The notes: generated by a model not told the origin, from the letters alone. Shown: positions 1-63,179, counted from the stretch's first letter. The stretch is DNA of 64,000 nt from Campylobacterota bacterium (GCA_039714575.1 JBDLJE010000003.1:294-64293); one strand, 5' to 3'. A program made the numbers and translations.

Positions 1-3000
1 TTTGAAACTACTGTTGAGAGTGGCAGTTCAAGTTCTGGAGGTAGCAGTAGTAGTGGGGGAAACAGTACCGTTACAGATCGCTATACCCTACCGACCTCTA
101 GTGGTTGTTCCCCTGCAATGAGCTGTGGTTGTATGGAGTGTGAATACTTTATTGTTCCATATCTTGGGCAAGTTATTAAGGGGCCGCTTAGCGGAGCAGA
201 TATCTCACTTTTCAGTGCAGAGGGTTATCGTTTAAGCAGTGCTTTGTACAGTGGTAAAACAAGCGAGGGTACTGAGTTGTACACCGCCGGACTGCTTAAT
301 ATCCCTGACACACTTGTTGAAACACTAATTGATGATGAACTTTACATTCTTGAAGTCAGTGGAGGAATAGATATCGATCGTGATGACGACATGCTTGTTG
401 ATAGTACGTTCACGCAAAACAATTCGACCCTTCATGCCGTGTTAAGTGGAGCAGACCTCAAGGCTGTTAAGCCAAAAGTCTCAATTTTAACGGAAATAGC
501 GTATCAGATCGTACATGATGCTTTAATGGATGGAGATGATGCACAGAGTATTTTTACAACTTTGGATGATGTTGCAACACGGTTACTGATAACTAAAATA
601 TACCCTAGCTCTCCCGACCCCTTGAATCATGTTGACTTAGTTCATTGGTTACCGACGATAGATAAAGAGATCCTCTTTACCGATTACAATACAAAAATTC
701 TGCCGATCATTGACAAACTCCAACAAAATATACCGATCTATCAAGATGCATACGATGTTGTCTATTATCCTGATGGCGTTACACCAGTATTGCAAAGTGC
801 TCTATTTAATGTTCCGGAAAATGCTGCTGTCGGAACAACAATAGGACAGGTAGCAGTACTTAATGAAGGGGCATCATCAGTGGTTAACATGACACTGTTT
901 GGTGAAGGAAGTGAAGCTTTTAGTATAGATAGTAATGGGCTCATAAAAAGTGTCCTTCAGCTTGATTATGAAACAAAACAGCTTTATTCACTTTATGTAC
1001 GTGCTCAAAACGCTAATGGCTACAGCCGTTATACTGCCTTGTACATAGAAGTTGATGATGTGGTTGATGCACCGTATGCCGTCTCTTTTGTACCTGAGAT
1101 ACTTTATTCAAATGCAGCCGTCGGCTCAAAAGCAGCTCAAGTTGTTTTTGATCAAGGCTCAAGTGCCATTACTTCCATAGAACTAATCGGAACAGAGGGT
1201 GAATACTTTAGTATTGACAATAACGGTAACATCATGACTGCAAAACTCTTAGAAGACTTTTTTGTAAAAAAAGCTTATCGTTTTGACGTGGTTGCTACAA
1301 ACAGTTCGGGTAATAGCAAACCTATTACAGTGATTATCAACGTTGCTGACAGACGTGACATTCCGCAGCTTAGTCCTTTGTCGGCTAATGTCGATGAGAA
1401 TGCATTAGCAGATACTGTTGTTGCAAAAGTACCGATTATCAGTGATGGCGATAGTCCTATCATCTCCTATGCCCTGAGTGATAATTTGCAATTTGTGATC
1501 GATAACAACGGAACTATTCGTGTCGCACCGGATGCAGGTCTGGACTATGAGTCACAACAGCAGTGGAACCTTAGTGTTACAGCGTCAAATATAATTGGCG
1601 ATAGCCATCCACAGAACGTAACGATAACTATAAATAATGTTCCCGATGTTCTACCTACCTTACATGACGTCAATGTCAGTATAAACAAAGAGACAGCTGT
1701 GGGTACTGTTGTTGCCAATGTTCTTCAACACAAAGGCGATAGCTCAATTACTTCATTTACACTTTCACCAGGTTCGCTGTTTAACATTGATTTGTTAGGT
1801 GATATACGTCTGGAAAGTTCTTTAATGGAACAGGGTGAAGAACATTTTACACTACAAGCCAGTGCAACGAACAGTTTTGGCGAGAGCGAAAGTGTAGATG
1901 TAAATATAACACTTATCGTCGTTCCGGTAGTAAGTGACTTCTCAGCAACAACGTTTGATAACACGTCGGCTGGAACAATAATTGGTAAGATCAGCATAGT
2001 CGGTAATGGGAATCCTATCGAGTCTGTTACACTTAGTGGTGATGGCAGTAGTGATTTTTATGTGGATCTCAATGGTACGCTAAAAGTTGCAGACGGTGTG
2101 ACTATAACTGCAGCTAAACAAGAATTTTATCAGATGCTTGTAACGGTTAATAGTTCGTATGATGCAAGTGTGCAAATTGATGTTTTAGATCGGATAATTG
2201 GGTCGGTTGATACACCAAGTATTGCATGGGATGTGACCCTTTCATTTGATGGTACCAAGGCCTTTGTGGCTGATTCCTCTTCAGGCTTACAGATCATAGA
2301 TGTCAATGATCCAAAGGTGCCTATACTCATTAGTTCAGTTGATACACCTGGTACCGCATGTTCTGTAATCCTTTCTACCGACGGTACTAAGGCCTTTGTG
2401 GCTGACTACTCTTCAGGCTTACAGATCATAGATATCAGTGTTCCAACAGCACCTTTGATTATCGGTTCGGTTGATACACCAAGTATTGCATGGGATGTGA
2501 CCCTTTCATTTGATGGTACCAAGGCCTTTGTGGCTGATGGTTATTCAGGTTTGCAGATCATAGACGTCAGTGATCTAACAGCCCCTTTGATTATCGGTTC
2601 GGTTGATACACCAAGTATTGCATTGGATGTGACCCTTTCATTTGATGGTACCAAGGCCTTTGTAGCTGATTCCTCTTCAGGCTTACAGATCATAGATATC
2701 AGTGATCCAACAGCCCCTTTGATTATTGGTTCGGTTGATACACCAAGTTATGCATGGGATGTGACCTTATCTGCCGATGGTATCAAAGCCTTTGTGGCTG
2801 ACGGTTATTCAGGTTTGCAGATCATAGATGTTAGTGATCCAATTGCTCCAGCGATTATTGGTTCAGTCGATACGCCGGATCAGGCAAGAGCTGTTACTCT
2901 TTCTACAGATGGGACAAAGGCGTTTATGGCTGACTATTATTCAGGTTTGCAGATAATAGATGTTAGTGATCCAACACTGCCTATGATCATTAGTTCAGTG

Positions 3001-4602
3001 AATACACCGAGTACTGCTGCTGGTGGTGTCATTCTTTCTGATGATGGGACAACGGCGTTTGTGGCTGACGGGAACTCAGGCTTACAGATCATAAATGTTG
3101 ATGGTATAGAGGTTATGGAAAAAGTGCCTGGAATTTTAGGGTTCTCTACAGTTATGGAAGAAAACAGTACGATAGGGATGATGGTAGGACATGTGAAAAT
3201 TTACTATACTGGAAAGAATGGTATTACCTCCTTTAAGCTTTTAGGAGAGGGTGCGGATGATTTTTCTATAGATGAAAATGGTATTGTCATACTCCAGCAT
3301 GAACTTAATTATAGTTCACAAAGTCTTTATCAACTTAAAGCTATTGCAACAAACAGTATTGGCGATAGAGAAGTTGATGTCGTTATTCGTATTCACTCTA
3401 TTCCAGAGTTACAAGATTTTGTAGGTGAAGTCAATAGTATGGCTGTAGAAGGAACTTATGTTGGGCAAATAGATATGTGGATAGATGATAATACTACTAT
3501 CACAGATATTGCATTAATAGATGAAGGGTCAGAGAACTTTGTATTAAATAACGATGGAAAAATCTATATAGATACTGGAGCTGATTTACATCATTTTGTT
3601 ACACCCCAATTTAACCTAACTGCTATTGCAACCAATCAATATGGTAGTAGTAATGAAGTGAATGTGACAATTATTGTTTTGGAAAGAATTAGTTCTTTTA
3701 AAATAGATGGCATCGATGCAGGTAGTATTGCCCTTTGTAAAAATAGCTCTAGATTACTTGTCTCTGATTTTGGAGTAGGCTTTATGAGTGTTGATTTCAC
3801 TGATCTCACCACTCCATACTTGATGAAATTAGTAAATTCACCACGTTATATTACTGATATTATTCTATCTGCTGATGAAACAAAAGCATTTTTAACTGAT
3901 CAAAAATCTGGTTTACAGATTGTCGATATCAGTAACCCATGGTTACCATTTGTTATCGGCTCAGTCAATACTCCAAATTATACATTTGGTGTTACTCTTT
4001 CAGCAGACGAAACTAAAGCATTTGTTGCTGATGGTGATTCGGGATTACTAATTATTGATGTCAGTGATCCAACTGCTTCTTATATAATCGGCTCAGTCGA
4101 CACTCCTGGTGTAGCAAGCGATATTACCCTTTCTCTTGATGAGACGAAAGCCTTTATTGCTGATGGAAAGTCAGGTTTAGTAATCATCGATATCAGTGAT
4201 CCAACTGTTCCAGTTATCATCGGCTTAGTCGATACACCTGGTTATGCAAGGGATGTTGCCCTTTCCATCGATGAGACAAAGGCATTTGTCGCTGATTATG
4301 ATTCAGGACTACAAATTATTGATATTAGTAATCTAGCCAACTTTACAATTGTTGGCTCGATTAATACGCCAGGTTATGCAGTTGATGTTATTGTATCAAT
4401 AGGTGGTGGAAAGGTATTTCTTGCCGATAATCAATCAGGATTACAGATTATTAATATTAGTAATCCAACTGTTCCAGTTATCATCGGCTTAGTCGATACA
4501 CCTGGTTATGCAAGGGATGTTGCCCTTTCCATCGATGAGACAAAGGCATTTGTCGCTGATGCTAATTCAGGTTTACAGATTATTGATTTAACTGGGCTAT
4601 AG
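1..4602 (+). CDS. Giant secreted/surface protein with cadherin-like repeats and two LVIVD beta-propeller repeat blocks; the 5' end runs off the window
   Basis: Frame 1 is open from nt 1 (FETTVESGSSSSGGSSSSGG...), so the ATG at 118 is probably internal. There are at least 7 modules of about 100 aa with a cadherin-like pattern (VPENAAVGTTIGQV ... FSIDSNG ... LDYE ... Y.L.V.A.N..G.S). Two runs of 44-aa units match the LVIVD repeat pattern (DVTLS.DGTKAFVAD..SGLQIIDVSDP..P.IIGSVDTP), at roughly nt 2200-3100 and 3790-4602. Confidence 0.8.
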   Translation, partial: FETTVESGSSSSGGSSSSGGNSTVTDRYTLPTSSGCSPAMSCGCMECEYFIVPYLGQVIKGPLSGADISLFSAEGYRLSSALYSGKTSEGTELYTAGLLNIPDTLVETLIDDELYILEVSGGIDIDRDDDMLVDSTFTQNNSTLHAVLSGADLKAVKPKVSILTEIAYQIVHDALMDGDDAQSIFTTLDDVATRLLITKIYPSSPDPLNHVDLVHWLPTIDKEILFTDYNTKILPIIDKLQQNIPIYQDAYDVVYYPDGVTPVLQSALFNVPENAAVGTTIGQVAVLNEGASSVVNMTLFGEGSEAFSIDSNGLIKSVLQLDYETKQLYSLYVRAQNANGYSRYTALYIEVDDVVDAPYAVSFVPEILYSNAAVGSKAAQVVFDQGSSAITSIELIGTEGEYFSIDNNGNIMTAKLLEDFFVKKAYRFDVVATNSSGNSKPITVIINVADRRDIPQLSPLSANVDENALADTVVAKVPIISDGDSPIISYALSDNLQFVIDNNGTIRVAPDAGLDYESQQQWNLSVTASNIIGDSHPQNVTITINNVPDVLPTLHDVNVSINKETAVGTVVANVLQHKGDSSITSFTLSPGSLFNIDLLGDIRLESSLMEQGEEHFTLQASATNSFGESESVDVNITLIVVPVVSDFSATTFDNTSAGTIIGKISIVGNGNPIESVTLSGDGSSDFYVDLNGTLKVADGVTITAAKQEFYQMLVTVNSSYDASVQIDVLDRIIGSVDTPSIAWDVTLSFDGTKAFVADSSSGLQIIDVNDPKVPILISSVDTPGTACSVILSTDGTKAFVADYSSGLQIIDISVPTAPLIIGSVDTPSIAWDVTLSFDGTKAFVADGYSGLQIIDVSDLTAPLIIGSVDTPSIALDVTLSFDGTKAFVADSSSGLQIIDISDPTAPLIIGSVDTPSYAWDVTLSADGIKAFVADGYSGLQIIDVSDPIAPAIIGSVDTPDQARAVTLSTDGTKAFMADYYSGLQIIDVSDPTLPMIISSVNTPSTAAGGVILSDDGTTAFVADGNSGLQIINVDGIEVMEKVPGILGFSTVMEENSTIGMMVGHVKIYYTGKNGITSFKLLGEGADDFSIDENGIVILQHELNYSSQSLYQLKAIATNSIGDREVDVVIRIHSIPELQDFVGEVNSMAVEGTYVGQIDMWIDDNTTITDIALIDEGSENFVLNNDGKIYIDTGADLHHFVTPQFNLTAIATNQYGSSNEVNVTIIVLERISSFKIDGIDAGSIALCKNSSRLLVSDFGVGFMSVDFTDLTTPYLMKLVNSPRYITDIILSADETKAFLTDQKSGLQIVDISNPWLPFVIGSVNTPNYTFGVTLSADETKAFVADGDSGLLIIDVSDPTASYIIGSVDTPGVASDITLSLDETKAFIADGKSGLVIIDISDPTVPVIIGLVDTPGYARDVALSIDETKAFVADYDSGLQIIDISNLANFTIVGSINTPGYAVDVIVSIGGGKVFLADNQSGLQIINISNPTVPVIIGLVDTPGYARDVALSIDETKAFVADANSGLQIIDLTGL
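2203..2538 (+). repeat. Perfect 72-bp direct repeat pair (2203-2274 and 2467-2538) inside LVIVD block 1
   Basis: A letter-by-letter comparison shows both copies read tcggttgatacaccaagtattgcatgggatgtgaccctttcatttgatggtaccaaggcctttgtggctgat. The offset is 264 bp, which equals two 44-aa units. A third copy with 2 mismatches lies about 132 bp further on. Confidence 0.9.
4201..4560 (+). repeat. Perfect 96-bp direct repeat pair (4201-4296 and 4465-4560) inside LVIVD block 2
   Basis: Both copies read ccaactgttccagttatcatcggcttagtcgatacacctggttatgcaagggatgttgccctttccatcgatgagacaaaggcatttgtcgctgat. The offset is again 264 bp. Both encode PTVPVIIGLVDTPGYARDVALSIDETKAFVAD. Confidence 0.9.
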
Positions 4603-4610
4603 TAGATCAA

Positions 4611-4629
4611 AATATGATTATTTCATATT
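4611..4629 (+). terminator. Weak AT-only hairpin downstream of the adhesin gene
   Basis: The stem is aatatga/tcatatt with loop ttatt, followed by aattttatt. There is no GC in the stem, so this is tentative. Confidence 0.25.
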
Positions 4630-4797
4630 AATTTTATTAAAGAATATTAATATGTTAAAGTTCTGTTATATTAAAGAAATGTTATGAATGATGTAAGTGC
4701 AAAAATGATTTAAAATTGACTATGTCAAGTATAATACATCAACGTGTTCATAAAGTATGTTTAGGCATAATTACGCCACTAAAAATAGGGTTAGAGC

Positions 4798-5907
4798 ATG
4801 GAATGTAAACACTTTGGTCAATGTGGCAGCTGCCGTCTTTATGAGGGCGGTTATGAGACTCAGCATAAAACGAAAACAGAGGACATTGTCTCACTGTTTG
4901 ATGAGCTTTACGGTGATGATATAACACCGTTTTACTCATCTGACAGCCATTACAGAGCCCGCGCCGAATTTAAGATCTGGCATATCGGTGATGAGATCCA
5001 TTATGCGATGAACCCGATGGAACGCGGGGCGAAGATGGTGTTGATCGAAGAGTGTCCGATGGTGACCCGGCCGATCGAAAAACTGATGTGGCCGCTGATC
5101 GTTAGTATTAAAGAACTTGCAATGGACTTTAAACTGTTTGGTCTTGATTTTTTAAGCAGTTTTGATGGAGAGATCGCTATCTCTATGCTCTATCACCGAA
5201 AACTGGACGAAGCGTGGCAAGTTCAGGCAAATGCACTGGCAGAGAAACATAACATCAAGGTCATCGGCCGTTCACGCAAGCAGAAGGTGGTCCTGGGTGA
5301 GGACTTTGTCACTGAGACCTTGAACATCAATGACAAGACCTATAAGTTCAGACACATCGAGAACAGCTTTACGCAGCCCAACCCGCGTGTCAATGAGAAG
5401 ATGGTGGGCTGGTCTCTTGAGCAGTTCAAGGGCATTACGGGCGACCTGCTCGAACTCTACTGCGGGGCAGGTAACTTCACCATCCCCTTTGCAACACAGT
5501 TCCATAAGGTCCTGGCAACCGAGATCTCAAAGTCCTCTATCAATGCGGCGAAGAAAAACATGGAGCTCAACGGTGTAGAGAACATCGAGTTCGTTCGCAT
5601 GAGCGCCGAAGAGTTCGTACAGGCGCTTGACGGCGTGCGTGAGTTTAGACGTATGAAAGAGATCGACCTTAAAAGTTATGAACTGACTACCATCTTTGTC
5701 GATCCGCCGCGTGCGGGAATGGATGAGGAGTCCTGCGGTTTTGCCTCACGCTTTGAACATATACTCTATATATCATGCAACCCTGAGACCCTCAAACGCG
5801 ACCTGGAACACCTGACTAAAACACATACTATAGAGACCATGGCGACCTTCGATCAGTTTCCCTATACAACACATATGGAGATGGGTGTTAAACTGATTAG
5901 GCGTTAG
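4798..5907 (+). CDS. trmA: tRNA (uracil54-C5)-methyltransferase, TrmA type
   Basis: The N-terminus is MECKHFGQCGSC. It carries a SAM-binding LELYCGAGNFT motif, DPPRAG, and the nucleophile motif YISCNP. It is 369 aa. Confidence 0.85.
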   Translation: MECKHFGQCGSCRLYEGGYETQHKTKTEDIVSLFDELYGDDITPFYSSDSHYRARAEFKIWHIGDEIHYAMNPMERGAKMVLIEECPMVTRPIEKLMWPLIVSIKELAMDFKLFGLDFLSSFDGEIAISMLYHRKLDEAWQVQANALAEKHNIKVIGRSRKQKVVLGEDFVTETLNINDKTYKFRHIENSFTQPNPRVNEKMVGWSLEQFKGITGDLLELYCGAGNFTIPFATQFHKVLATEISKSSINAAKKNMELNGVENIEFVRMSAEEFVQALDGVREFRRMKEIDLKSYELTTIFVDPPRAGMDEESCGFASRFEHILYISCNPETLKRDLEHLTKTHTIETMATFDQFPYTTHMEMGVKLIRR

Positions 5908-16896: not shown

Positions 16897-17451
16897 ATGA
16901 ATAATTCTGAAGCTGTTCTTCTCGCGCTGGCTATAGCAATATTAGCAGGACTGATATTCTACTCAATCTATCTGAAATACCGCAGTTCAAAAGTACAATC
17001 TGCATCGTCACAGGCAGAGTCCCTTAAAAACATGCTCGATGAATATGCTCAAAAAGTACAAGAAGATGAAGATACAATTGATGCGAAATTCAACACAGAG
17101 GGTATTGAGATCCCGACTAAAAAGTATCCGAAATACGACAATACGAGAGCCGTTAATGAGATGGGTCTGACACAAGAAGAGGCGGACAGTTTTGTCCATG
17201 ACCTTGTTGAGGCGATAGGATCAGAGATACCGCGTATAGAAGAGGCGATCATAGGGTCTGATTATAAGACAATCGAAGAGATCGTTCATACGATCACCGG
17301 TTCTTCTTCGACCCTTGGAACCGGAGGTATCTCATTGGCACTTATCAGTTTTTATACATCGGTCCAACATCGGGACACTTTTCAAAAACTGTATGTCCAT
17401 TTACAAAACGTAAAGTACTATCTGAATGAACTGAAAGATCAGGCAAAGTAG
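16897..17451 (+). CDS. Membrane-anchored protein with an HPt-like (histidine phosphotransfer) domain
   Basis: It has an N-terminal TM (AVLLALAIAILAGLIFYSIYL). The C-terminal four-helix-like region contains IVHTITGSSSTLGTGGISLAL, matching the HPt H-x-[LI]-x-G-S-[SA]-x-x-[LI]-G pattern. Confidence 0.5.
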   Translation: MNNSEAVLLALAIAILAGLIFYSIYLKYRSSKVQSASSQAESLKNMLDEYAQKVQEDEDTIDAKFNTEGIEIPTKKYPKYDNTRAVNEMGLTQEEADSFVHDLVEAIGSEIPRIEEAIIGSDYKTIEEIVHTITGSSSTLGTGGISLALISFYTSVQHRDTFQKLYVHLQNVKYYLNELKDQAK

Positions 17452-17629: not shown

Positions 17630-19030
17630 GTGGCAAAAAAAAAGAGACAACTCGACCACGACGATTCACTTTTTGAACAATATGATTTTGATGATCTAAA
17701 AGAAGAACTTAACATCAATGCCCTGGCAAAACTGCAAGCCAGAGAGAACAAACCACCGACCGACAGCCTGTATTTTGACGTAAATGAGCAGAAGATCACG
17801 ACATTTTTTGCAGATAAACTCTCTACGGTCAAACAAGAGATTTATAAAAAAGTCGCATCTTATGACCATATGGCGATGCGCGTCAGTGACATCAGCACGA
17901 TCTTGGCTGAGGCTAAATATGCGAGTGAAGAGTTCATTCAGAACATCACGACCTTTCAAGAGGGGGCAAAACAGCGTATTAAAGATGTCAAGAATGAGTA
18001 TGATGTCCGTAAAAGGGATCTGGAGAAGTTCAAACATAAAAACAGTATTACCAGAGAAGCGTCATACCCGAACTCAAAGATACTTTATATCGGGATCATT
18101 ATGCTTATCTTGCTTAGTGAGACCTCATTAAACGCATACTTCTTTGCCAAAGGCAATGAACTTGGACTTATCGGCGGTGCGGCACAGGCACTGATCATCT
18201 CTCTGATCAACATCACGTTCGCATTTTTTCTTGGCGGGTACCTGGTCAAAAAGCTCAATCTGGTCAGAAAAGCACCTGTGCTGAAGTACGGTGTTCTTAC
18301 AGCTTTGATCGTCGGGTTTATCGCGATTCTCTTTTTTAACCTGCTTGTCGGCCATCTTCGTGTTCAGCTGGGTATCGACCCGGACAACGCCTATGTCAAT
18401 TCGATCATCACCTTTGCCCAAAGCCCTTTTGGTCTCAACGAGTTTGACTCCATCATCCTGGTACTGGTCGGACTTCTCTCGTTTTTGATCGCGTTTACCG
18501 ACTTTTACAAGATGGATGACGAGTACCCGCATTACGGCGATCTTGATCGCAAATATCAAGAGGCATTGATGGACTTTTCTGAACTTAAAGAGGAGCTTCT
18601 GCATGAGATCGAACGCAGTTCATCTTCTATCTTGAACAAACTTGAGACACGGCAGATGACCGCCAAGGTCATCATGCAGGAGTTGATGGAAGTGCCTATC
18701 TTCAGACAAAAACTGCAGGACCATTATAAAGAGTACTATCACTATCTCAACAACACCTATAATGCGATGTTAGGTCTCTATCGTGAGGTCAATAACGACA
18801 ATAGAACCGACGATGCTCCTGCCTACTTCAGAGAGCGTGCAGAGTTGAGTGAAGATCATGTTGTTGTGATCGTCGATGATACGTTCAAAAACGATCTTGT
18901 ACAGTACCAGACGGCCGTGTTGGAGCTGCCGCATATTATCGGTGAACAGAAGCTGAAGATCAACTCAACCCTTAAAGATGTCATAACTGCACTTGAAAAT
19001 GAGTCAGAAACGGATGAAAAAGATGGCTAA
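17630..19030 (+). CDS. Hypothetical 4-TM protein flanked by coiled-coil regions (gene A of the MotAB-like operon)
   Basis: It has a GTG start. About 150 aa of charged helical N-terminus is followed by four hydrophobic helices (ILYIGIIMLILL, AAQALIISLINITFAFFLGGYLV, YGVLTALIVGFIAILFFNLLVG, SIILVLVGLLSFLIAF) and then about 170 aa of helical C-terminus. Confidence 0.7.
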   Translation: MAKKKRQLDHDDSLFEQYDFDDLKEELNINALAKLQARENKPPTDSLYFDVNEQKITTFFADKLSTVKQEIYKKVASYDHMAMRVSDISTILAEAKYASEEFIQNITTFQEGAKQRIKDVKNEYDVRKRDLEKFKHKNSITREASYPNSKILYIGIIMLILLSETSLNAYFFAKGNELGLIGGAAQALIISLINITFAFFLGGYLVKKLNLVRKAPVLKYGVLTALIVGFIAILFFNLLVGHLRVQLGIDPDNAYVNSIITFAQSPFGLNEFDSIILVLVGLLSFLIAFTDFYKMDDEYPHYGDLDRKYQEALMDFSELKEELLHEIERSSSSILNKLETRQMTAKVIMQELMEVPIFRQKLQDHYKEYYHYLNNTYNAMLGLYREVNNDNRTDDAPAYFRERAELSEDHVVVIVDDTFKNDLVQYQTAVLELPHIIGEQKLKINSTLKDVITALENESETDEKDG

Positions 19031-19829
19031 AAAACGCACCAAAAAAGCAAAAAGCGATAAACTCGGTTATATTCTCATTACTGTGGTGGTCGTTGTGCTC
19101 GTTGCGGTAGGTGCTTATGTAGCGATGAATCGCGGTGTTGAAAAAGACAAAGAGACGATGTGCCGTCTCGATGGTGCTTTTGACCGCCAAGTCATCATCT
19201 TGGACATGACAGACAACTATAATGCGATCCAGGTGCAGCAGATCAAACATATTATCAACAACCTGACCGACAACCTAAAACTGCATGAACAGATCCAGCT
19301 CTACTTTATCGATGAAACACCGCCGAGTGAGATGAAAGCGGAGCTTATATTGTGTAATCCAGGCGATGGTGCCGGAAAGAGTGAGATATACTCTAATCCG
19401 AAACTATTCAAGAAACGGTGGGATGAACGTTTTCATCAACCTTTGATGGCGAAGATCCGAGATCTCTCAGGCGACTATACCAGCAGCAGATCGCCGATCC
19501 TTGAGACGATACAGGCCGTTAACAACATGGCTTTTCCCTATGTAAGAGAGGAGGGGCGAAAGTATAAGGTCACCCTTATTTCGGACATGATCCAAAACTC
19601 TGATGAGCTCTCTTTTTTTAAGACAAGAGCCACGTCTCTACTGAATTTTGTTGATTCGCCGGGTTATAACAAGACGCGTACGGATCTTGAAGGTGTTGAT
19701 GTAGACCTCGTTATTGTCAGACGCGACAAGTTTGAGTCATTGCAGTCAAGAGACTATATCGATTTTTGGGTTGAAGTGCTTACCAGTATGAGTGCAAATG
19801 TTGAAAACATTAAGTCAACAGACGGATAA
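18993..19829 (+). CDS. TM-anchored vWA-like protein (gene B)
   Basis: A Lys-rich N-terminus and a TM (YILITVVVVVLVAVGAYVA) precede an alpha/beta domain with vWA-like motif order: VIILDMTDNYN ... SPILETIQ ... VTLISDMIQNS. An alternative start at 19023 would give an 8-nt overlap with gene A. Confidence 0.65.
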   Translation: MKMSQKRMKKMAKKRTKKAKSDKLGYILITVVVVVLVAVGAYVAMNRGVEKDKETMCRLDGAFDRQVIILDMTDNYNAIQVQQIKHIINNLTDNLKLHEQIQLYFIDETPPSEMKAELILCNPGDGAGKSEIYSNPKLFKKRWDERFHQPLMAKIRDLSGDYTSSRSPILETIQAVNNMAFPYVREEGRKYKVTLISDMIQNSDELSFFKTRATSLLNFVDSPGYNKTRTDLEGVDVDLVIVRRDKFESLQSRDYIDFWVEVLTSMSANVENIKSTDG

Positions 19830-19832
19830 TTT

Positions 19833-21335
19833 ATGAAAAATAGAAAATTTAACAGTGGTTTCATGGAAAAGGTACAGATCAAGTACCTCTTTCTCGTCGC
19901 TTTGGTCAGTGGTGTTGTGTTTATTATGCTGGGCGGGTTCACCGATAAGACCTACCTCTCCATAATACTGACCATATCAGTCATGATCGCTTACTTCCTT
20001 ATCGGACAGAAGATCGTTGAGAGAGAGCTGCTGACCAATGAGCAGTTTGCCGACAGTAACTATTACCTCGGGTTTTTGTTTACGCTGATCTCTCTGGCAA
20101 GCTCACTATACATACTCTCTAACGGAAGCATGGAAGGCGGTCTTTTGACCCGTCTTATCGGTCAGTTCGGTATCTCCATCTCGACTACGATCGTGGGTCT
20201 CTCTCTGCGTATCTACCTACTGAGTTTCAGCCCGAACATCGGCTCGAATATTGAAAGTTTCAACCTGATGATCATGGAGAAACTTCAGATGCTGAATGAC
20301 CATATCGGTCACAGTATTGATCAGACAAAGACCTTTTCCAATGTCATTGATGACAAGGTCAACCTCTTTATCGAGCAGACGTTAAAGTCCGTAGAGAAGT
20401 ATAATGAGCGTCTGGTCGAGAGCCTGGATCAACACTCCGTTAACAATATCTTTGCCAAGATCTATGAAGATATGGATGCGCTCCATGCCAAACAAGAAGA
20501 GCGTGTTGATGAGATCTATAAAAACATCACGAACTATCATCTGCGTTATGAAAAACAGAACCAATCCTCGACAAAGGCCTTTCAAGACTCTATTACAGAC
20601 AGTGAAAAGTGGATCCGTGAGTTTAATGACACGATGGGCCAATCGGCAGGAAGCATCGCAAACTCCAACACAGAGATGCGAAAGGTCATCCATAACTTCG
20701 ATGACTTTGTCCGCGACCTGCCTAAGCTTTTTGCTGACGTCAATACTCTTTTTGAGCAGAGTGCCAAAGCGCTTACTTCTGACCTCAAAGAGAAGAATCG
20801 TGCGCTGATCGAGGACTTTATCGAACAGAAAGATCTTCAAAATAAAATTCTGATAGAGCGTGTTTTGGGCGAAAACCAGAAGGTCGTTACGAGTTTTTTG
20901 AACAACGGTGAGAGTCAAAACAGCGAGATCATCAACAAGTTGAACACTCTAAATGAAGAGGTCGTGGCCAGTTTTATCAAGTCGCGTGAATCCGGCAATG
21001 AGAAGATCATCAACGATATTATGGTCTTGAACAACAAGGTCATACAGTCTGTCGGTTCACGTGCCGAGAGTGCCAATGCCAAGGTTGTGGATGCCATCAT
21101 CACATCATCAACAAAAGTACTGCACTCTTTTGTAAACAACCAAGACCAGAAAAACGAACAGCTTATCCAGAAAATTACCAAAGAGAACAGAAAGCTTCTC
21201 GAAAGTATGGCCAAATTTATAGCTGAGAACAGATCGGGGACTTCGACTCAGCAAGCCCGTTATTCTGTCGCTGACGAGAAACCTGTTAGTGAAAAGATGC
21301 GTGCACACGGCAGTGTCAAACTGCCTAAAAGCTAG
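19833..21335 (+). CDS. MotA/ExbB-like channel protein with a long helical C-terminal tail (gene C, ZorA-like architecture)
   Basis: It has four TM helices. Residues 77-127 (YLGFLFTLISLASSL...LIGQFGISISTTIVGLSLRIYLL) fit the two-helix MotA_ExbB signature. About 370 aa of charged helical sequence follows, including 26-aa repeats. Confidence 0.65.
   Translation: MKNRKFNSGFMEKVQIKYLFLVALVSGVVFIMLGGFTDKTYLSIILTISVMIAYFLIGQKIVERELLTNEQFADSNYYLGFLFTLISLASSLYILSNGSMEGGLLTRLIGQFGISISTTIVGLSLRIYLLSFSPNIGSNIESFNLMIMEKLQMLNDHIGHSIDQTKTFSNVIDDKVNLFIEQTLKSVEKYNERLVESLDQHSVNNIFAKIYEDMDALHAKQEERVDEIYKNITNYHLRYEKQNQSSTKAFQDSITDSEKWIREFNDTMGQSAGSIANSNTEMRKVIHNFDDFVRDLPKLFADVNTLFEQSAKALTSDLKEKNRALIEDFIEQKDLQNKILIERVLGENQKVVTSFLNNGESQNSEIINKLNTLNEEVVASFIKSRESGNEKIINDIMVLNNKVIQSVGSRAESANAKVVDAIITSSTKVLHSFVNNQDQKNEQLIQKITKENRKLLESMAKFIAENRSGTSTQQARYSVADEKPVSEKMRAHGSVKLPKS
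20805..21194 (+). repeat. Five tandem 26-aa repeats in the tail of gene C
   Basis: The units are LIEDFIEQKDLQNKILIERVLGENQK / VVTSFLNNGESQNSEIINKLNTLNEE / VVASFIKSRESGNEKIINDIMVLNNK / VIQSVGSRAESANAKVVDAIITSSTK / VLHSFVNNQDQKNEQLIQKITKENRK (aa 325-454). Confidence 0.75.
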
Positions 21336-21352
21336 AGGGATTACGTTTAGCG

Positions 21353-22378
21353 ATGCAGTTTAATGAGAACGGAAACAACGATTTTTTATTCGGTATTACC
21401 TTAACCGAACTTATTTTAATGCTCTTTTTTCTTCTGTTGCTCATCTCAGCTTTTATGAGTGCTGAAAAGTCCAGTATCATCACTAAAGTCGAACAGGAAA
21501 ATGAACGTATCGTCAAAGAGAACCTGGACCTTCAACTTAAAAACAAGGTGAGCAGGACGCTTTCTGAGGAGATGATCGGCGCACTGTTGCGCTTTAGACT
21601 CGGTGAAGACAAGGAGCAGGAGAAAGCGAAGCAGATCTTTAAAGAGTTAAGCAACCAGACTAAGCTTATTGCAGAGAATGAAAAGTTAAAGGGTCAAGTC
21701 GAAGCGTATGAGATCAATGACAAACTTTTGAAGATGGATGAGGAGTTTAAGGTCCAGCTCTCTCGAAAAGAGTCGATCCTCAATCTGCTCAAAGATATTA
21801 ACTCGACAGAACAGCTTCAGGCGATCTTCAATGATCTTGAAACGCTTGAAAGACTGAACGCAAAGCTGGAAGTCGAAGACAAACGGCTGCGCAGAGAAAA
21901 TGCCATGTTGGAAAAGTCGCTCAAAGAGCTCTCTTCGCTCTCAAAAGAGGAGCTGCTGTATGCGCAAGAGATCCTAAAAGGGCAGGTGAGTTACCTGACA
22001 CGCAGACTCAACATGGGCGGCGGCAGTGAACTTCCGCCTTGCTGGGCCAACAGAAAGAGCGGCAAAGCGGAGTATATCTTTACGGTCATTCTAGGTGAAG
22101 AGGCTCTGCGTGTTGCGCCAAGATGGCCAAAATACAGAGCAAAAGAGCTGCGCAAGTACGGATCGCTGGAGCCGTTGTTTTATCGGGATCTCAATGTTAC
22201 CGAGTTTTTAGCGATCACTAAACCGATCTATAAAGATGCCGACAAAAAAGAGTGTAAACACTATCTCTATATGTTTGACGATGCGATGACAAAAGATGGG
22301 TATAAGACCAAGCGTCTGCATATAGAGAACTACTTTTACAAGTATGAGGATGCCTCAAAGGTGTATGACCGTTTTTAG
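21353..22378 (+). CDS. MotB/ExbD/TolR-like single-TM protein with a coiled coil and an unknown C-terminal domain (gene D)
   Basis: The N-terminus FLFGITLTELILMLFFLLLLISAF resembles the MotB/ExbD/TolR TM helix, with an acidic residue (Glu19, nt 21407-21409) near its cytoplasmic end. About 170 aa of coiled coil follows. The C-terminal domain of about 125 aa (LPPCWANRKSGKAEYIFTV...) has no OmpA-like motif that I can see. Confidence 0.6.
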   Translation: MQFNENGNNDFLFGITLTELILMLFFLLLLISAFMSAEKSSIITKVEQENERIVKENLDLQLKNKVSRTLSEEMIGALLRFRLGEDKEQEKAKQIFKELSNQTKLIAENEKLKGQVEAYEINDKLLKMDEEFKVQLSRKESILNLLKDINSTEQLQAIFNDLETLERLNAKLEVEDKRLRRENAMLEKSLKELSSLSKEELLYAQEILKGQVSYLTRRLNMGGGSELPPCWANRKSGKAEYIFTVILGEEALRVAPRWPKYRAKELRKYGSLEPLFYRDLNVTEFLAITKPIYKDADKKECKHYLYMFDDAMTKDGYKTKRLHIENYFYKYEDASKVYDRF

Positions 22379-22381
22379 GTC

Positions 22382-22873
22382 TTAAATATTTTTTGCAATA
22401 AACGTCAAACACGTTTCAGCACTCTGTGCCACAACGACATCCAGCATCATAAGATTATGGGAGAGACCGAAATCTTCTATGATCTTGCCGTCTTGGCATA
22501 AGGCGGCATCATTCGAAAGCTTTTGCGCTTCATGAACACGTTCTATCATCGGACGGCGGTCCTGAGCATAGGCAAAGACCTTTTTGCCAAGTGCAGCGCC
22601 ATAGCCCACCTCATACACCGTGCCGGAATCAGGCTCCAGGCCGCGAAAAGGGTTTAGGTTAGCCATGACGATGTCGCACTCTTCCAAGAGCTTGACATTG
22701 GCCTCTCTGATCGTTTTAGCGACCTCATAAGGTGTACCGTCGCATACGATCTCATTGTCAAGTGGAAACATCCCTTCAAAACCGTACTGTCGACAGAGCT
22801 CTTTTAAAGCCTTGCCCTGTTCTATCGCATTTTGTTCAAACACATCCGGTCCGGCGAGATATATCTTTAACAT
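22382..22873 (-). CDS. Nucleoside 2-deoxyribosyltransferase family protein
   Basis: It begins MLKIYLAGPDVF, contains ...DSGTVYEVGYGAALGK..., and is 163 aa, typical of the NDT fold. Confidence 0.75.
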   Translation of the reverse strand: MLKIYLAGPDVFEQNAIEQGKALKELCRQYGFEGMFPLDNEIVCDGTPYEVAKTIREANVKLLEECDIVMANLNPFRGLEPDSGTVYEVGYGAALGKKVFAYAQDRRPMIERVHEAQKLSNDAALCQDGKIIEDFGLSHNLMMLDVVVAQSAETCLTFIAKNI

Positions 22874-47803: not shown

Positions 47804-48778
47804 TTGAAATCAATCTATTTGTTTTTGTTAATACCTTGTGCAATACTTTTTGCTTCAGAGAACTATCCGCAAATTTTTGAACAGCAGGGAACACCATTGT
47901 TTGAAGCGGTTCATAAATTTCAAAAATTAAAGCATATCCCTGTAATGGAAAAAGCTGTTGAACGTTATGTAGCAGAAGCAGGTGAAGCTTTACAATTTGG
48001 CAAAATAGCCGATGCTGCTGTAGAGAAGAAAGAAAAAGTAGCATACTTGAAAGTATTACGCTCTTTACAGAAAAATTACAATAAAACAATAAGCTTAGTA
48101 AAGAAACATCTTGTAGATGCAATGAAGCAAAACGATAAGGATATGTTTCTAACACTTGTTGAATCAGATCTTGATTTTGGCAATAGTCATTTGAATGAGA
48201 AGATGATTGTATTTTATCAGCAACACAGTAAAGTATTACATAGTGAAAGTATGGACAAACGAGTCCTGGATCAAAAAGCTGCTGATACTTCTGCTGCTGA
48301 GTTTGCAGGTGATGGAATGAGTCATGAAGACGAATGTAATATTGGCCCCTTACAACACAATCTAAAAAACATCATTAATAAACCTGCAACTTTTTATGCG
48401 ATGGTATTAGTGTCTGGTAAAGATGATTGGTTACAAATTAATGATCAGTACTATTCTATTATTAAAGATACGCAATACACTATTGCATGTAAATATTACG
48501 AAGAGACTGGTATCGCCAGAACATATTTGTTCCCTCTAAAAAAACCATTTACTATAGAAGCCTACATTACACGATTAGAAGCGGAAAAATTTGCAGCAAT
48601 GATTTTTATGAGACCTGACATCACAGCTAAATACCGTCAAGCTGCTTCGCTGAAAGATACTGATCTGTATCTCAAAAAGCTTACATATGTTATGCAAAGA
48701 CACAGTAAATACATTATAGCAGGTCCTGAGATAAAGCCGTATGTAGAAAGTTCAGATGAACTTTTATCCGGACCATAA
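47804..48778 (+). CDS. Hypothetical secreted protein (islet cargo)
   Basis: It has a TTG start 6 nt after an aggag SD and a signal peptide (MKSIYLFLLIPCAILFASE). I recognised no family. Confidence 0.65.
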   Translation: MKSIYLFLLIPCAILFASENYPQIFEQQGTPLFEAVHKFQKLKHIPVMEKAVERYVAEAGEALQFGKIADAAVEKKEKVAYLKVLRSLQKNYNKTISLVKKHLVDAMKQNDKDMFLTLVESDLDFGNSHLNEKMIVFYQQHSKVLHSESMDKRVLDQKAADTSAAEFAGDGMSHEDECNIGPLQHNLKNIINKPATFYAMVLVSGKDDWLQINDQYYSIIKDTQYTIACKYYEETGIARTYLFPLKKPFTIEAYITRLEAEKFAAMIFMRPDITAKYRQAASLKDTDLYLKKLTYVMQRHSKYIIAGPEIKPYVESSDELLSGP

Positions 48779-48825
48779 TAATGGAAATATTGTGTAGAAA
48801 TTTTCAGTTATTGAAGGCTTAAATA

Positions 48826-51492: not shown

Positions 51493-51515
51493 ATATATTC
51501 GCACGTGTTAGATCT

Positions 51516-51761
51516 GACACCGTCATCCACTACGACCCATGGTGGAACCCCGCCGCCGAAGACCAAGCCACCGACAGAGCCTACCGCATAGGACAAGACA
51601 AACCTGTCTTTGTCTACAAACTGATCATCGAAGATTCTGTTGAAGAGAAGATACTTGCTTTGCAAGCACAGAAAAAGCAGTTGACTTTAGGGCTTTACAG
51701 TGATGAAAAAGATGATGTCTCAACATTAAATGCTGAGAGTTTGTTGGAACTGTTTAGCTAA
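51516..51761 (+). pseudogene. Displaced 3' fragment of a SWIM-SNF2 helicase gene (last 81 codons plus stop)
   Basis: It translates to [81 protein letters not shown]. Only 5 aa differ from the C-terminus of the intact gene. There is no start codon and no upstream homology. Confidence 0.85.
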
Positions 51762-51770
51762 ACGCTGACA

Positions 51771-51823
51771 GAACACTTTGTATACTATTGCCTTACTCGC
51801 CAAAATAGTCATACAAAGTGTTC
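51771..51823 (+). terminator. Strong hairpin just downstream of the displaced SNF2 3' fragment (possibly the ancestral terminator)
   Basis: Perfect 13-bp arms gaacactttgtat (51771-51783) and atacaaagtgttc (51811-51823) are extended by actatt/aatagt. No clear T-run follows. Confidence 0.4.
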
Positions 51824-52013
51824 AGACATTGGCAATTTCCTTCTAAACTACACATCAATGTAAGAACTATTTTCATACTTTTTTAAAATTTAGGACAATC
51901 TTCTTTTAGCTTGATATATTTTGTTGAATAGTAATTTAAAAAATGTGTTCAACTATTATACTGATTAAGGGTAATGACTATAGAATGTGTACTAATGAAT
52001 AGTTAGGTAAAGC

Positions 52014-62478: not shown

Positions 62479-62588
62479 ATCAAATACCTTTTAGATTGTA
62501 TAACGTTTGTCGTGACCGATAGTTTTCCGGTAAACTATTGCGTTCCACGTATTTATTATATATTTTGATATAAAAACACTTCAATTAA

Positions 62589-63107: not shown

Positions 63108-63143
63108 GATATAGTTTCCTTTTTAATATATAACGTTCGACTT

Positions 63144-63179
63144 GAGAAATAGTTGCACTCTCAGGGTCAACTATTTCTC
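63144..63179 (-). terminator. 12-bp perfect hairpin overlapping the stop of the 63167..63553 gene
   Basis: gagaaatagttg (63144-63155) pairs with caactatttctc (63168-63179), with a 12-nt loop. No T-run follows. Confidence 0.35.

What the first reader, a model, noticed from the sequence alone, without database searches (positions are those of the whole stretch)
17630..22378. Four-gene membrane operon pairing a ZorA-like MotA/ExbB channel and a MotB/ExbD-like partner with a vWA-like anchor and a 4-TM coiled-coil protein
Four same-strand ORFs are packed with an 8- or 38-nt overlap, a 3-nt gap and a 17-nt gap, so they look like one operon. Gene C carries the two-helix MotA_ExbB-like signature (YLGFLFTLISL ... 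IGQFGISISTTIVGLSLRIYLL) followed by about 370 aa of helical tail; that architecture is otherwise known from ZorA of Zorya. Gene D starts with a MotB/ExbD/TolR-like TM helix bearing an acidic residue (TLTELILMLFFLLLL), but I see no OmpA/peptidoglycan-binding motif. Gene B is a TM-anchored vWA-like domain, and gene A is a 4-TM protein flanked by coiled coils. The neighbourhood has no flagellar, Tol-Pal, TonB or gliding genes. It also lacks a ZorC/ZorD/ZorE-type nuclease or helicase, and the gene order (accessory genes first, stator pair last) differs from Zorya. This fits no characterised stator-driven system that I know of. It may be a new ion-motive-force-powered membrane machine for defence, envelope sensing or transport.
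Basis: partly seen in the sequence, partly recalled or inferred. Interest (0 to 1): 0.85.

Follow-up and report, generated by a model that had tools for sequence, protein, structure and literature searches.

The report
Undescribed stator-like four-gene membrane system
Four tightly packed genes encode a membrane machine built around a very divergent relative of the ion-driven MotAB/ExbBD/ZorAB motors; the same cassette recurs across several bacterial phyla, often with a secreted nuclease attached, and I found no description of it in the databases and papers I could search.

Summary
The four ORFs exist exactly as described: A 17630-19030, B 18993-19829, C 19833-21335, D 21353-22378. They are real genes. 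The same A-B-C-D order recurs in more than 60 loci, mainly Campylobacterota, Alpha- and Gammaproteobacteria, with single loci from three other phyla.

C is a 4-TM protein with a 368-aa helical tail. Its last two helices belong to the MotA_ExbB family, shown through its homologues and by profile alignment to TolQ/ExbB, with the two functional threonines kept. D has a MotB-like layout: one N-terminal TM helix with a near-universal Glu (not Asp) and a long periplasmic helix. Its C-terminal domain is OmpA-like in 22 of 38 relatives. In the window it is a different two-cysteine domain with no detectable relative.

In relatives, secreted nucleases of three unrelated families are fused to D or encoded beside the cassette. 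The window has none. B's vWA label was not supported (0 of 45 homologues hit any vWA model). Nothing matches Zorya I-III, Tol, Ton or flagellar partners.

Best reading: a new Zorya-like, ion-powered envelope system, probably acting against incoming DNA. The motor identity is likely (about 0.85). The function is a guess (about 0.4).

The parts
17630..19030 (+). Gene A, 466 aa. It has an N-terminal cytoplasmic coiled-coil region, four TM helices (aa 149-290, nt 18074-18499) and a C-terminal helical region. Invariant residues across 22 homologues: P42, F134, E164, N168, G179, G183, N194, R244, D297, N388, R392, P397, F400.
   Evidence: No significant Pfam, NCBIfam, PADLOC or PDB match. It sits first in the cassette in nearly all loci.
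18993..19829 (+). Gene B, 278 aa from the TTG; the likely start is the ATG at 19023, giving 268 aa. It has a K/R-rich N-terminus, one TM helix (aa 27-45, nt 19071-19127) and a periplasmic domain (aa 52-278, nt 19146-19826). Invariant residues: C57, D71, C121, P123, S167, P168, D198, F258, W259.
   Evidence: No vWA or other family hit in 45 homologues. No PDB profile hit.
19833..21335 (+). Gene C, 500 aa: the putative pentameric 'A subunit' of the motor. It combines a 4-TM core with a long cytoplasmic helical tail.
   Evidence: A profile of the N-terminal region finds 2089 cluster representatives at E<=1e-10.
20037..20228 (+). MotA_ExbB-like two-helix hairpin of C (aa 69-132). Invariant residues: D74, S75, Y77, Y78, G80, F81, T84, L85, L88, T118, T119, G122, L123, F132. 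T84 aligns with TolQ T145 and PomA T158. T119 aligns with TolQ T178 and PomA T186.
20229..21332 (+). Helical tail of C (aa 133-500). It includes five 26-residue repeats at aa 331-460 (nt 20823-21212).
   Evidence: AF2 helices 136-196, 200-357 and 360-476. The PADLOC ZorA3 hit (E 2e-6) lies only here. Repeats.
21353..22378 (+). Gene D, 341 aa: the putative dimeric 'B subunit'. It has an N-terminal TM helix (aa 13-37, nt 21389-21463) carrying Glu19 (nt 21407-21409), then a periplasmic helical stalk (to about aa 220).
   Evidence: Orthologues carry OmpA, with or without a nuclease.
22028..22351 (+). C-terminal 'PPCW' alpha/beta domain of D (aa 226-333). Invariant residues: P228, P229, C230, W231, E240, P259, R262, C301, K318, E325, Y329, K330. 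It replaces the OmpA-like domain found in other lineages.
   Evidence: AF2 pLDDT 80-91. No Foldseek hit at E<0.001 in PDB or BFVD. No profile similarity to the OmpA-type or TolR/ExbD domains. Alignments.

Best explanation
The four genes encode one self-contained inner-membrane system. Its core, C plus D, is a very divergent member of the ion-driven 5:2 motor class (MotAB/PomAB, ExbBD, TolQR, ZorAB).

Inferred working model:
- Five C subunits surround two D helices.
- Ions pass between D-Glu19 and the C threonines T84 and T119, and this turns C around D.
- D is held to the cell wall or envelope by its periplasmic domain. That domain is OmpA-like in most relatives and the two-cysteine 'PPCW' domain here.
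- As in ZorA, the long cytoplasmic tail of C carries the movement or signal into the cell.
- A (4-TM with cytoplasmic coiled coils) and B (single TM with a periplasmic domain) are obligatory partners of unknown role. B has the topology of a TonB/TolA-type partner.

Relatives repeatedly carry secreted nucleases fused to D or encoded next to the cassette. The cassette is patchily spread across phyla and occurs on plasmids. The most likely job is therefore Zorya-like surveillance or defence at the envelope against incoming DNA. The window's version has no recognisable nuclease.

Shown computationally: gene structure, co-conservation, MotA_ExbB membership of C's hairpin, the D architecture and the nuclease association. 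Inferred: stoichiometry, ion flow, rotation, anchoring, and the defence role.
For: Co-conservation. A-B-C-D occur in the same order in six unrelated metagenomic contexts and in almost all of 80 genome loci. The loci come mainly from Campylobacterota, Alpha- and Gammaproteobacteria, with single loci from Thermodesulfobacteriota, Nitrospirota and Obscuribacterales. No other gene is conserved beside the cassette across lineages.

C as a motor subunit.
- PF01618 hits 10 of 16 homologue N-termini.
- Three hits exceed the gathering score (24.8, 23.4 and 23.3 against 22.9 bits) and map to TM3-TM4.
- hhalign of a 125-sequence profile against TolQ/ExbB aligns both helices, with T84 on T145 and T119 on T178 (pairwise E 0.004).
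- The HMMER alignment to PomA gives the same register (D74/D148, T84/T158, TT118-119/T185-186), although it is not significant in itself (E 2.8).

D as the partner subunit.
- The motif G[LI]T-x-x-E is found across the family.
- OmpA appears in 22 of 38 relatives and in the A. butzleri orthologue at E 1.4e-9.
- C and D are adjacent and tightly spaced.

Tail. C has 368 aa of helix and a ZorA3 tail hit.

Nuclease link.
- SNase is fused to D in 15 loci and GmrSD_C/HNH in 5.
- Separate thermonuclease genes abut the cassette in Rhizobium pRL11, Sinorhizobium, Microvirga and at least six other loci.
- A signal-peptide Endonuclease_1 lies two genes downstream in A. butzleri.

Mobility. The cassette is on 24 plasmids, 11 of them conjugative, and sits in variable contexts.

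Precedent. Zorya needs ZorB Asp26, PG binding and the tail, and Zorya III works without a nuclease (PMC11946911, PMC8565338).
Against: - The window's own C protein does not reach significance against PF01618 or any ZorA model over its TM region. The assignment is transitive.
- Foldseek on the C monomer model (pLDDT 69) gives only non-significant TolQ, ExbB and PomA hits at E 1-5.
- D matches no MotB_plug, ExbD or ZorB model. It carries Glu where all characterised B subunits carry Asp.
- In Sulfurimonadaceae the cassette sits in a conserved housekeeping neighbourhood, fully syntenic down to about 60% protein identity. That looks unlike a typical defence island.
- No defence genes flank it in the window.
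- The nucleases would be periplasmic. No known defence system is established to work there.
- There are no phage-borne copies and no experimental data.
Confidence: 0.45

Rival explanations
1. The motor is the same, but the role is housekeeping or physiological. The C-D complex would energise a periplasmic process, for example uptake, processing or scavenging of extracellular DNA, or envelope maintenance. It would work in the manner of ExbBD-TonB or TolQRA, with B as the TonB/TolA-like transducer and the nucleases serving nutrition or DNA processing.
For: - The cassette shows stable, vertically inherited synteny among housekeeping genes across Sulfurimonadaceae.
- Flanks are ordinary metabolic or transport genes in Paracoccus plasmids and metagenomic contigs.
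- SNase and Endonuclease I are classic secreted bulk nucleases, and an Excalibur Ca-binding gene lies beside one of them.
- B has TonB/TolA-like topology.
- A nucleoside 2-deoxyribosyltransferase (a salvage enzyme) abuts D in this clade.
Against: - The distribution is patchy: only 146 of about 185,000 species genomes carry the exact C motif, a lower bound.
- The cassette occurs on conjugative plasmids.
- Unrelated nuclease families are swapped in and out, which is typical of conflict systems.
- The long ZorA-like cytoplasmic tail has no role in Ton/Tol-type transduction.
- No outer-membrane receptor or transporter is conserved beside the cassette.
Confidence: 0.25
2. An abortive-infection variant of the defence idea. 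The C-D complex senses envelope damage and activates A, whose four TM helices with invariant E164, N168 and N194 form a pore or ion leak. The leak depolarises the cell. The nucleases seen in relatives would be optional extras.
For: - A is strictly co-conserved and has conserved polar residues inside its TM helices.
- The window's system has no nuclease.
- A has weak hits to 2TM/SLATT-type effector models (E 0.03-0.5).
- Zorya was originally proposed to act by depolarisation (PMC8565338).
Against: - The effector-model hits are not significant.
- Acetobacteraceae keep C-D without a detectable A or B, so A is not universally required.
- Zorya I was since shown to act directly rather than by abortive infection (PMC11946911).
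Confidence: 0.1
3. C and D are not an ion-driven motor at all. They would be coiled-coil membrane scaffold or signalling proteins, and the MotA_ExbB resemblance would come from convergent composition of two glycine- and threonine-rich TM helices.
For: - All direct matches are weak: the best Pfam hit is E 1.9e-5 in a distant homologue, the PDB profile search is not significant, and Foldseek is not significant.
- C lacks both conserved prolines of MotA/ExbB/TolQ, with Y77 and Y128 in those positions.
- D has Glu rather than Asp and hits no MotB_plug or ExbD model.
- RefSeq sometimes labels C as a chemoreceptor.
Against: - The same family is hit consistently by 10 of 16 members, always on the same two helices and in the same register, with both functional Thr positions invariant.
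- The adjacent gene has the full MotB layout, including OmpA, in most lineages.
- An invariant acidic residue sits in the partner's single TM helix.
Confidence: 0.1
4. It is a member of an already named system: Zorya type I, II or III, Tol-Pal, Ton, AglRQS or a flagellar stator.
For: PADLOC ZorA3 hit at E 2e-6. It is a four-gene unit, as Zorya III is (PMC8565338).
Against: - The ZorA3 hit covers tail residues 140-380 only.
- There is no hit to ZorB, C, D, E, F (DUF3348) or G (DUF2894), nor to the NCBIfam ZorA models, ExbD, MotB_plug, TolA, TonB or Pal.
- The gene order differs from Zorya.
- C has no cytoplasmic loop between TM2 and TM3, which a flagellar stator needs.
Confidence: 0.03

Closest known systems
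ZorAB core of Zorya anti-phage systems (types I-III)
   Same: - An adjacent MotA_ExbB-type subunit and a single-TM partner with an essential acidic residue.
- A periplasmic anchoring domain containing disulfide cysteines.
- A very long C-terminal cytoplasmic helical tail on the A subunit.
- A multi-gene cassette with extra partners.
- Nuclease effectors in some versions (ZorD and ZorE in Zorya; SNase, HNH or EndoI here).
- A patchy, mobile distribution.
   Different: - No ZorA or ZorB profile match over the motor region, and no ZorC-G.
- C has a compact 4-TM core. From my recollection (not checked here), ZorA has three TM helices plus a membrane-proximal cytoplasmic domain.
- D has Glu, not Asp.
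- The accessory genes come first and are membrane proteins.
- The associated nucleases are extracytoplasmic (fused after OmpA, or carrying signal peptides), not cytoplasmic.
- The window's D has a novel domain in place of the PG-binding domain.
ExbBD-TonB and TolQR-TolA energy transducers
   Same: - C's two-helix hairpin aligns best with TolQ/ExbB, with both key threonines kept (T145 and T178 in TolQ).
- The small partner has a TM carboxylate.
- A third single-TM protein with a periplasmic domain (B) is topologically like TonB or TolA.
   Different: - No ExbD/TolR periplasmic-domain homology.
- No TonB, TolA, Pal or TolB, and no outer-membrane receptors nearby.
- C has four TM helices and a 368-aa tail.
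- Both conserved prolines of ExbB/TolQ are replaced by Tyr.
Flagellar stators MotAB/PomAB
   Same: - A four-TM A subunit.
- A B subunit with an N-terminal TM helix, a periplasmic helix and an OmpA-like PG-binding domain (in most relatives).
- The T / TT pattern in TM3 and TM4, plus an Asp before TM3. From my own knowledge, this resembles the Na+-type PomA residues D148, T158, T185 and T186.
   Different: - No large cytoplasmic loop between TM2 and TM3 (the torque-generating face that contacts FliG).
- No MotB_plug.
- No flagellar genes nearby.
- A tail that stators lack.

Membership tests
Ion-driven 5:2 motors (MotA_ExbB superfamily: MotAB, PomAB, ExbBD, TolQR, ZorAB) | The A subunit carries the MotA_ExbB two-helix hairpin (Pfam PF01618). 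| tested here: met
   Met transitively. The window's C is below threshold. However, 10 of 16 homologue N-termini hit PF01618, three of them above the gathering score, always on TM3-TM4. hhalign to TolQ/ExbB covers both helices at pairwise E 0.004.
Ion-driven 5:2 motors (MotA_ExbB superfamily: MotAB, PomAB, ExbBD, TolQR, ZorAB) | Conserved polar Thr/Ser in both hairpin helices lining the ion path (TolQ T145/T178; ZorA T147/S184). | tested here: met
   T84, T118 and T119 are invariant in 30 homologues. In the hhalign alignment T84 falls on TolQ T145 and T119 on T178.
Ion-driven 5:2 motors (MotA_ExbB superfamily: MotAB, PomAB, ExbBD, TolQR, ZorAB) | The B subunit has a single N-terminal TM helix with the universally conserved Asp. 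| tested here: inconclusive
   The helix and an acidic residue are present and nearly invariant, but the residue is Glu (E19). Among the 30 D sequences matched by a motif regex, 28 have Glu and 2 have Asp; the alphaproteobacterial 'GLTVAE' form, which the regex missed, also has Glu. There is no MotB_plug or ExbD Pfam hit.
Ion-driven 5:2 motors (MotA_ExbB superfamily: MotAB, PomAB, ExbBD, TolQR, ZorAB) | The B subunit has a periplasmic anchoring domain (OmpA-like PG-binding in MotB and ZorB). | tested here: not met
   The window's D has no OmpA domain. Its C-terminal domain shows no similarity to OmpA-type or TolR/ExbD domains. By contrast, 22 of 38 orthologues do carry OmpA, so the feature is met by the family but replaced in this lineage.
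Ion-driven 5:2 motors (MotA_ExbB superfamily: MotAB, PomAB, ExbBD, TolQR, ZorAB) | 5:2 stoichiometry and dependence on the ion gradient. | not testable with these tools
   Only monomer predictions were possible. No multimer modelling or experiment was available.
Zorya (types I-III) | ZorA and ZorB profile matches over the motor region. | tested here: not met
   PADLOC ZorA3 matches tail residues 140-380 only, and there is no ZorB hit. NCBIfam gives no ZorA model hit at E<=1.
Zorya (types I-III) | Type-specific partners: ZorC+ZorD, ZorE, or ZorF (DUF3348)+ZorG (DUF2894). | tested here: not met
   A and B have no PADLOC or Pfam hits to any of these. The definition of type III is taken from PMC8565338.
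Zorya (types I-III) | A long C-terminal helical tail on the A subunit. | tested here: met
   The AF2 model predicts helices from residue 136 to 476. C homologues range from about 340 to 650 aa.
Zorya (types I-III) | Anti-phage activity. | not testable with these tools
   No experiment was possible.
vWA domain (claimed for gene B) | A match to a vWA-clan profile. | tested here: not met
   0 of 7 and 0 of 45 B homologues hit any vWA family at E<=1-5. The PDB profile searches were empty.
vWA domain (claimed for gene B) | MIDAS motif DxSxS...T...D on an alpha/beta fold. | tested here: inconclusive
   The invariant D71-x-T73-D74, S167-P168 and S197-D198 are spaced like MIDAS elements. A Porticoccus B-like ORF has 'DFSNS'.
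Tol-Pal / Ton systems | TolA or TonB, TolB/Pal or TonB-dependent receptors; an ExbD/TolR-type periplasmic domain. | tested here: not met
   None is present within about 4.8-34.5 kb of the window. No neighbour is conserved across lineages. hhalign of the D domain against TolR/ExbD gives E 0.26.
Flagellar stator | A large cytoplasmic TM2-TM3 loop that contacts FliG; a MotB plug; a flagellar gene context. | tested here: not met
   The TM2-TM3 link is about 3 residues between the modelled helices, and fewer than 20 counting the polar start of helix 3. There is no MotB_plug hit and no flagellar genes nearby.

The most novel reading that the evidence does not exclude
This cassette defines a new, widespread class of ion-driven 5:2 motor systems that act on foreign nucleic acid in the periplasm. 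A stator-like subunit uses a TM glutamate, possibly with Na+-type coupling suggested by the T/TT filter. It would carry or recruit extracytoplasmic nucleases, so DNA could be attacked before it reaches the cytoplasm. In the window's lineage the uncharacterised two-cysteine 'PPCW' domain replaces OmpA. That domain could be a new wall-binding module or even a fourth nuclease type, since its weak structural neighbours are enriched in RNase-H-like folds.
Probability: 0.25. Interest if true: 0.9.

Novelty: new variant of a known kind. Interest (0 to 1): 0.78.

Why it matters
Only a handful of uses of the 5:2 ion-driven motor are known: flagellar rotation, Ton and Tol energy transduction, gliding/T9SS, and Zorya defence. 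This cassette would add another.

- It is common. A profile of C's N-terminal region finds about 2,000 clusters (50% identity) at E<=1e-10.
- All four proteins lack any family annotation.
- It departs from the rule of an Asp in the B subunit.
- It links a motor to extracytoplasmic nucleases.

If it is a defence system, it would be a case of immunity organised at the envelope, and it would help test how ZorA-like tails transmit signals. If it is not, it points to an unknown energised periplasmic process involving DNA. Either way the hypothesis can be tested directly with point mutants (D E19; C T84 and T119) and existing assays.

Tried and rejected
Searches that gave nothing:
- Direct Pfam, NCBIfam, PADLOC and PDB searches of the four window proteins gave nothing significant except a tail-only ZorA3 hit.
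- A full-length C profile against the PDB was swamped by coiled-coil noise such as apolipoproteins and haemagglutinin, so I switched to an N-terminal-only profile. That profile was also not significant against the PDB.
- Foldseek of the C monomer model found no significant hit. Foldseek of the D model found none in PDB or BFVD.
- hhalign of D against TolR/ExbD was not informative, whether with the full-length D alignment or with the C-terminal domain alone. hhalign of the PPCW domain against the OmpA-type domain also found nothing. I therefore rejected the idea that PPCW is a diverged OmpA or ExbD domain.
- The vWA idea for B was tested with 7 and with 45 homologues against Pfam and with two profiles against the PDB, all negative.
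- A profile of A against the PDB gave only a chance-level hit to a fumarate reductase cytochrome b subunit.
- The promoter and terminator scan was at background level. No DNA tandem repeats were found.
- No phage copies were found.
- Literature searches on ZorA-like or stator-like defence, Zorya IV and RefSeq accessions found no description.

Approaches abandoned:
- I tried a B+D chimera alignment to get two folds from the last structure job, but MAFFT misaligned it and I dropped it.
- I tested whether tail length varies by repeat number. The clade keeps five repeats.

Full report
**1. The observation**

The window carries four + strand ORFs: A 17630-19030 (466 aa, GTG start), B 18993-19829, C 19833-21335 (500 aa) and D 21353-22378 (341 aa).

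- A and B overlap by 38 nt if B starts at the TTG, or by 8 nt if it starts at the ATG at 19023. The ATG start fits the 267-269 aa B homologues.
- B-C has a 3-nt gap and C-D a 17-nt gap.
- The next gene (22382-22873) is convergent, so the unit ends at D.
- The quoted peptide motifs and D-Glu19 are present.
- Hydropathy and the AF2 models give four TM helices in A, one in B, four in C and one in D.
- The surrounding genes are housekeeping: DUF4395, Rrf2, a weak Hpt-like protein, nucleoside deoxyribosyltransferase, GtrA, GT2, PMT_2, RecO, GltBD, TrmA, a CDF transporter and a GGDEF-EAL protein. There are no flagellar, Tol, Ton or gliding genes.
- The closest homologues come from Sulfurimonadaceae.

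**2. The genes are real and form one conserved unit**

Homologues of C sit in the same A-B-C-D arrangement in six unrelated metagenomic contexts. These include Aliarcobacter butzleri, and the flanks there are entirely different.

A scan of one genome per species found 146 genomes with the invariant C peptide YYLGFLFT. I mapped HMMs of A, B, C and D onto the 80 best loci. The same order and strand appear in essentially every locus with enough flank.

- The loci come mainly from Sulfurimonadaceae and other Campylobacterota, many Paracoccaceae and other Alphaproteobacteria, and Gammaproteobacteria (Methylococcaceae, Pseudomonas, Porticoccus).
- Single loci come from Thermodesulfobacteriota, Thermodesulfovibrionia and Obscuribacterales.
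- Four Acetobacteraceae loci have C-D only. In the one Porticoccus locus that the HMMs also called C-D only, the two upstream ORFs resemble divergent A and B.
- No fifth gene is conserved across lineages.
- A profile of C's N-terminal 145 residues finds 2,979 cluster representatives (50% identity) at E<=1e-3 and 2,089 at E<=1e-10. Most are 380-620 aa.
- The cassette is on 24 plasmids or chromids of Paracoccus, Rhizobium, Sinorhizobium, Microvirga and Tistrella, 11 of them conjugative. It is on no phage record.
- RefSeq calls the genes 'hypothetical protein' and 'OmpA family protein'. It occasionally mislabels A as 'DMT family transporter' and C as 'methyl-accepting chemotaxis protein'.

**3. 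Gene C**

The AF2 model (30 sequences, pLDDT 69) has four N-terminal helices (16-36, 40-65, 69-96, 104-132). Three very long helices follow, running to residue 476.

The window protein itself hits no family. The only PADLOC hit, ZorA3 at E 2e-6, covers tail residues 140-380 and may be compositional. The homologues give a clearer answer:

- 10 of 16 N-terminal fragments hit Pfam MotA_ExbB. Three are above the gathering score, and the hits always fall on helices 3-4.
- A 125-sequence profile aligns both helices to E. coli TolQ/ExbB at pairwise E 0.004. G80/T84 fall on TolQ G141/T145, and T119/G122 on T178/G181.
- The non-significant HMMER alignment to PomA uses the same register: D74/D148, T84/T158 and T118-T119/T185-T186.
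- D74, S75, Y77, Y78, G80, F81, T84, T118, T119, G122 and L123 are invariant.

C departs from the known proteins in several ways:

- Both prolines typical of MotA/ExbB/TolQ are replaced by tyrosines.
- There is almost no cytoplasmic loop between helices 2 and 3.
- There is a 368-aa tail, which contains five 26-residue repeats.

Foldseek on the monomer model was not significant, although TolQ, ExbB and PomA appear at E 1-5. I conclude that C is a highly divergent MotA_ExbB-family subunit with a ZorA-style tail (confidence about 0.85). Specific kinship to ZorA is not shown.

**4. Gene D**

Across the family the N-terminus reads (R/K)RG-x3-G(L/I)T-x-x-E followed by a leucine- and phenylalanine-rich helix. 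The acidic residue is Glu almost everywhere and Asp only rarely. All characterised B subunits use Asp; for example ZorB Asp26 is called 'universally conserved' in PMC11946911.

A long helix follows; it is periplasmic by topology (AF2). The C-terminus falls into two classes:

- OmpA-like domain: 22 of 38 sampled relatives, and the A. butzleri orthologue at E 1.4e-9.
- 'PPCW' domain: about 110 aa, with two invariant cysteines and the pattern PPCW...E-Y-I-F...WP..R...C(K/R)H..V..D...K..YK....E..FYKY. The window carries this one.

The PPCW domain is confidently modelled (pLDDT 80-91), with strand-helix order b-b-a-a-b-a-b. It has no significant structural neighbour in PDB or BFVD. It has no profile similarity to the OmpA-type or the TolR/ExbD domains. 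This is a domain replacement, not divergence.

D is therefore MotB-like in architecture and gene position, though not by any profile of its TM segment.

**5. Nucleases in relatives**

- In relatives, D continues after OmpA into an SNase domain (15 loci) or a GmrSD_C/HNH domain (5 loci), with Pfam E-values down to 1e-14.
- Elsewhere a separate thermonuclease gene abuts the cassette. It lies upstream, downstream or convergent in Rhizobium pRL11, Sinorhizobium, Microvirga and at least six other loci.
- In A. butzleri a signal-peptide Endonuclease I lies two genes downstream.
- By topology all of these nucleases are extracytoplasmic.
- The window, including all 64 kb, has no such domain.

**6. Genes A and B**

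A has invariant polar residues in its TM helices (E164, N168, N194). It also has a conserved DDPYPGYG motif after TM4 and a C-terminal YR..N...R...P.YF motif. It has no detectable relatives.

B has a basic N-terminus, one TM helix and a periplasmic domain with two invariant cysteines. The motifs D71-x-T-D, S167-P and S197-D198 are also invariant. The vWA idea was tested and not supported:

- No vWA Pfam hit in 45 homologues.
- No PDB profile hit.

Only the motif spacing, and a 'DFSNS' motif in a divergent Porticoccus copy, remain as hints.

**7. Mechanism**

The best-supported model has the following parts; items (a) to (c) are inferred by analogy with MotAB/ExbBD/ZorAB.

- (a) C5D2 forms a 5:2 motor.
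- (b) Ion passage between D-E19 and C-T84/T119 turns C around D.
- (c) D is fixed in the envelope by OmpA or by PPCW.
- (d) C's tail couples to the cytoplasm, as in ZorA.
- (e) A and B are obligatory membrane partners. B has TonB/TolA-like topology, and A is a possible effector or track.

The T/TT filter plus an Asp before TM3 resembles Na+-type PomA. This rests on my own knowledge of PomA and is only a hint about the coupling ion.

For function I favour envelope-level defence against incoming DNA (about 0.4), for these reasons:

- nucleases of three unrelated families are swapped in and out;
- the phyletic spread is patchy;
- the cassette is carried on plasmids;
- Zorya provides a precedent.

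The main rival is a physiological energised periplasmic process such as DNA scavenging or uptake, or envelope upkeep (about 0.25). It is favoured by the stable housekeeping synteny across Sulfurimonadaceae and by ordinary flanks elsewhere.

**8. Comparison and novelty**

The cassette is not Zorya I-III: there are no ZorA/B motor-region matches and no ZorC-G, and the gene order differs (PMC8565338). It is not Tol/Ton and not a flagellar stator. Searches of the paper library found no description, and PADLOC-DB v2 has no model for it.

I rate it a new variant of a known kind: a new 5:2-motor-based system. Limits of this rating:

- the motor assignment is transitive;
- the models are monomers;
- newer defence databases and AFDB were not available;
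- function is untested.

Noticed in passing
window 22382-22873 (-): A cytoplasmic nucleoside 2-deoxyribosyltransferase (PF05014) with no signal peptide lies convergent, 3 nt after gene D. It holds the same position in 12 Sulfurimonadaceae loci and in Sulfurimonas sp. HSL3-7, but not in other lineages. It is probably just synteny. It is worth noting because relatives carry nucleases at this position.
   Followed up: partly
window 16897-17451 (+): A 184-aa protein with an N-terminal TM helix and a sub-threshold Hpt hit lies 178 nt upstream of gene A. It is conserved there only within the Sulfurimonadaceae clade and may be a lineage-specific addition or regulator.
   Followed up: partly
window 20823-21212 (gene C aa 331-460): There are five tandem 26-residue repeats in the tail of C, visible only at protein level. 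The number is constant (five) in nearly all close homologues, so repeat number does not explain the length differences.
   Followed up: yes
window 48000-52000 and 62000-64000: These stretches have markedly low GC (0.32-0.34, against about 0.44 elsewhere), suggesting horizontally acquired segments. The 888-aa ORF 48826-51492 has only weak WD40-like PDB hits.
   Followed up: partly
L036, L038 (archaeal-labelled MAG contigs); L095 (Gordonia-labelled): Short contigs binned as Promethearchaeota and Bathyarchaeota carry a cassette nearly identical to the bacterial metagenome contig L007. The 'Gordonia' locus is nearly identical to Pseudomonas L093. These are probably binning or labelling errors, so they should not be counted as evidence of archaeal or actinobacterial spread.
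   Followed up: no
L103 (Sinorhizobium pSS05631d) 1541-5335; plasmid hits H8, H13: RefSeq labels the gene A homologue 'DMT family transporter' and the gene C homologue 'methyl-accepting chemotaxis protein'. These are likely composition-driven misannotations.
   Followed up: no
L001 4349-6251 (Aliarcobacter butzleri): The cassette is followed by a DUF4236 protein and a signal-peptide Endonuclease_1. Further on lie Zn_ribbon_Top1, DnaB-like and integrase fragments, so this is a mobile-element-like setting, unlike the window.
   Followed up: partly
window 22028-22351 (D C-terminal domain): The weak, non-significant Foldseek neighbours of the PPCW domain are repeatedly RNase-H-like-fold proteins: glucokinase, actin-like proteins, Hsp70, uS11, the PolB exonuclease domain and a terminase nuclease. 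This is only a hint that the domain could have that topology.
   Followed up: no
L055, L066, L068, L073 (Acetobacteraceae): These loci keep only C and a PPCW-type D, with no detectable A or B upstream. The motor pair can therefore exist without the two accessory genes.
   Followed up: partly
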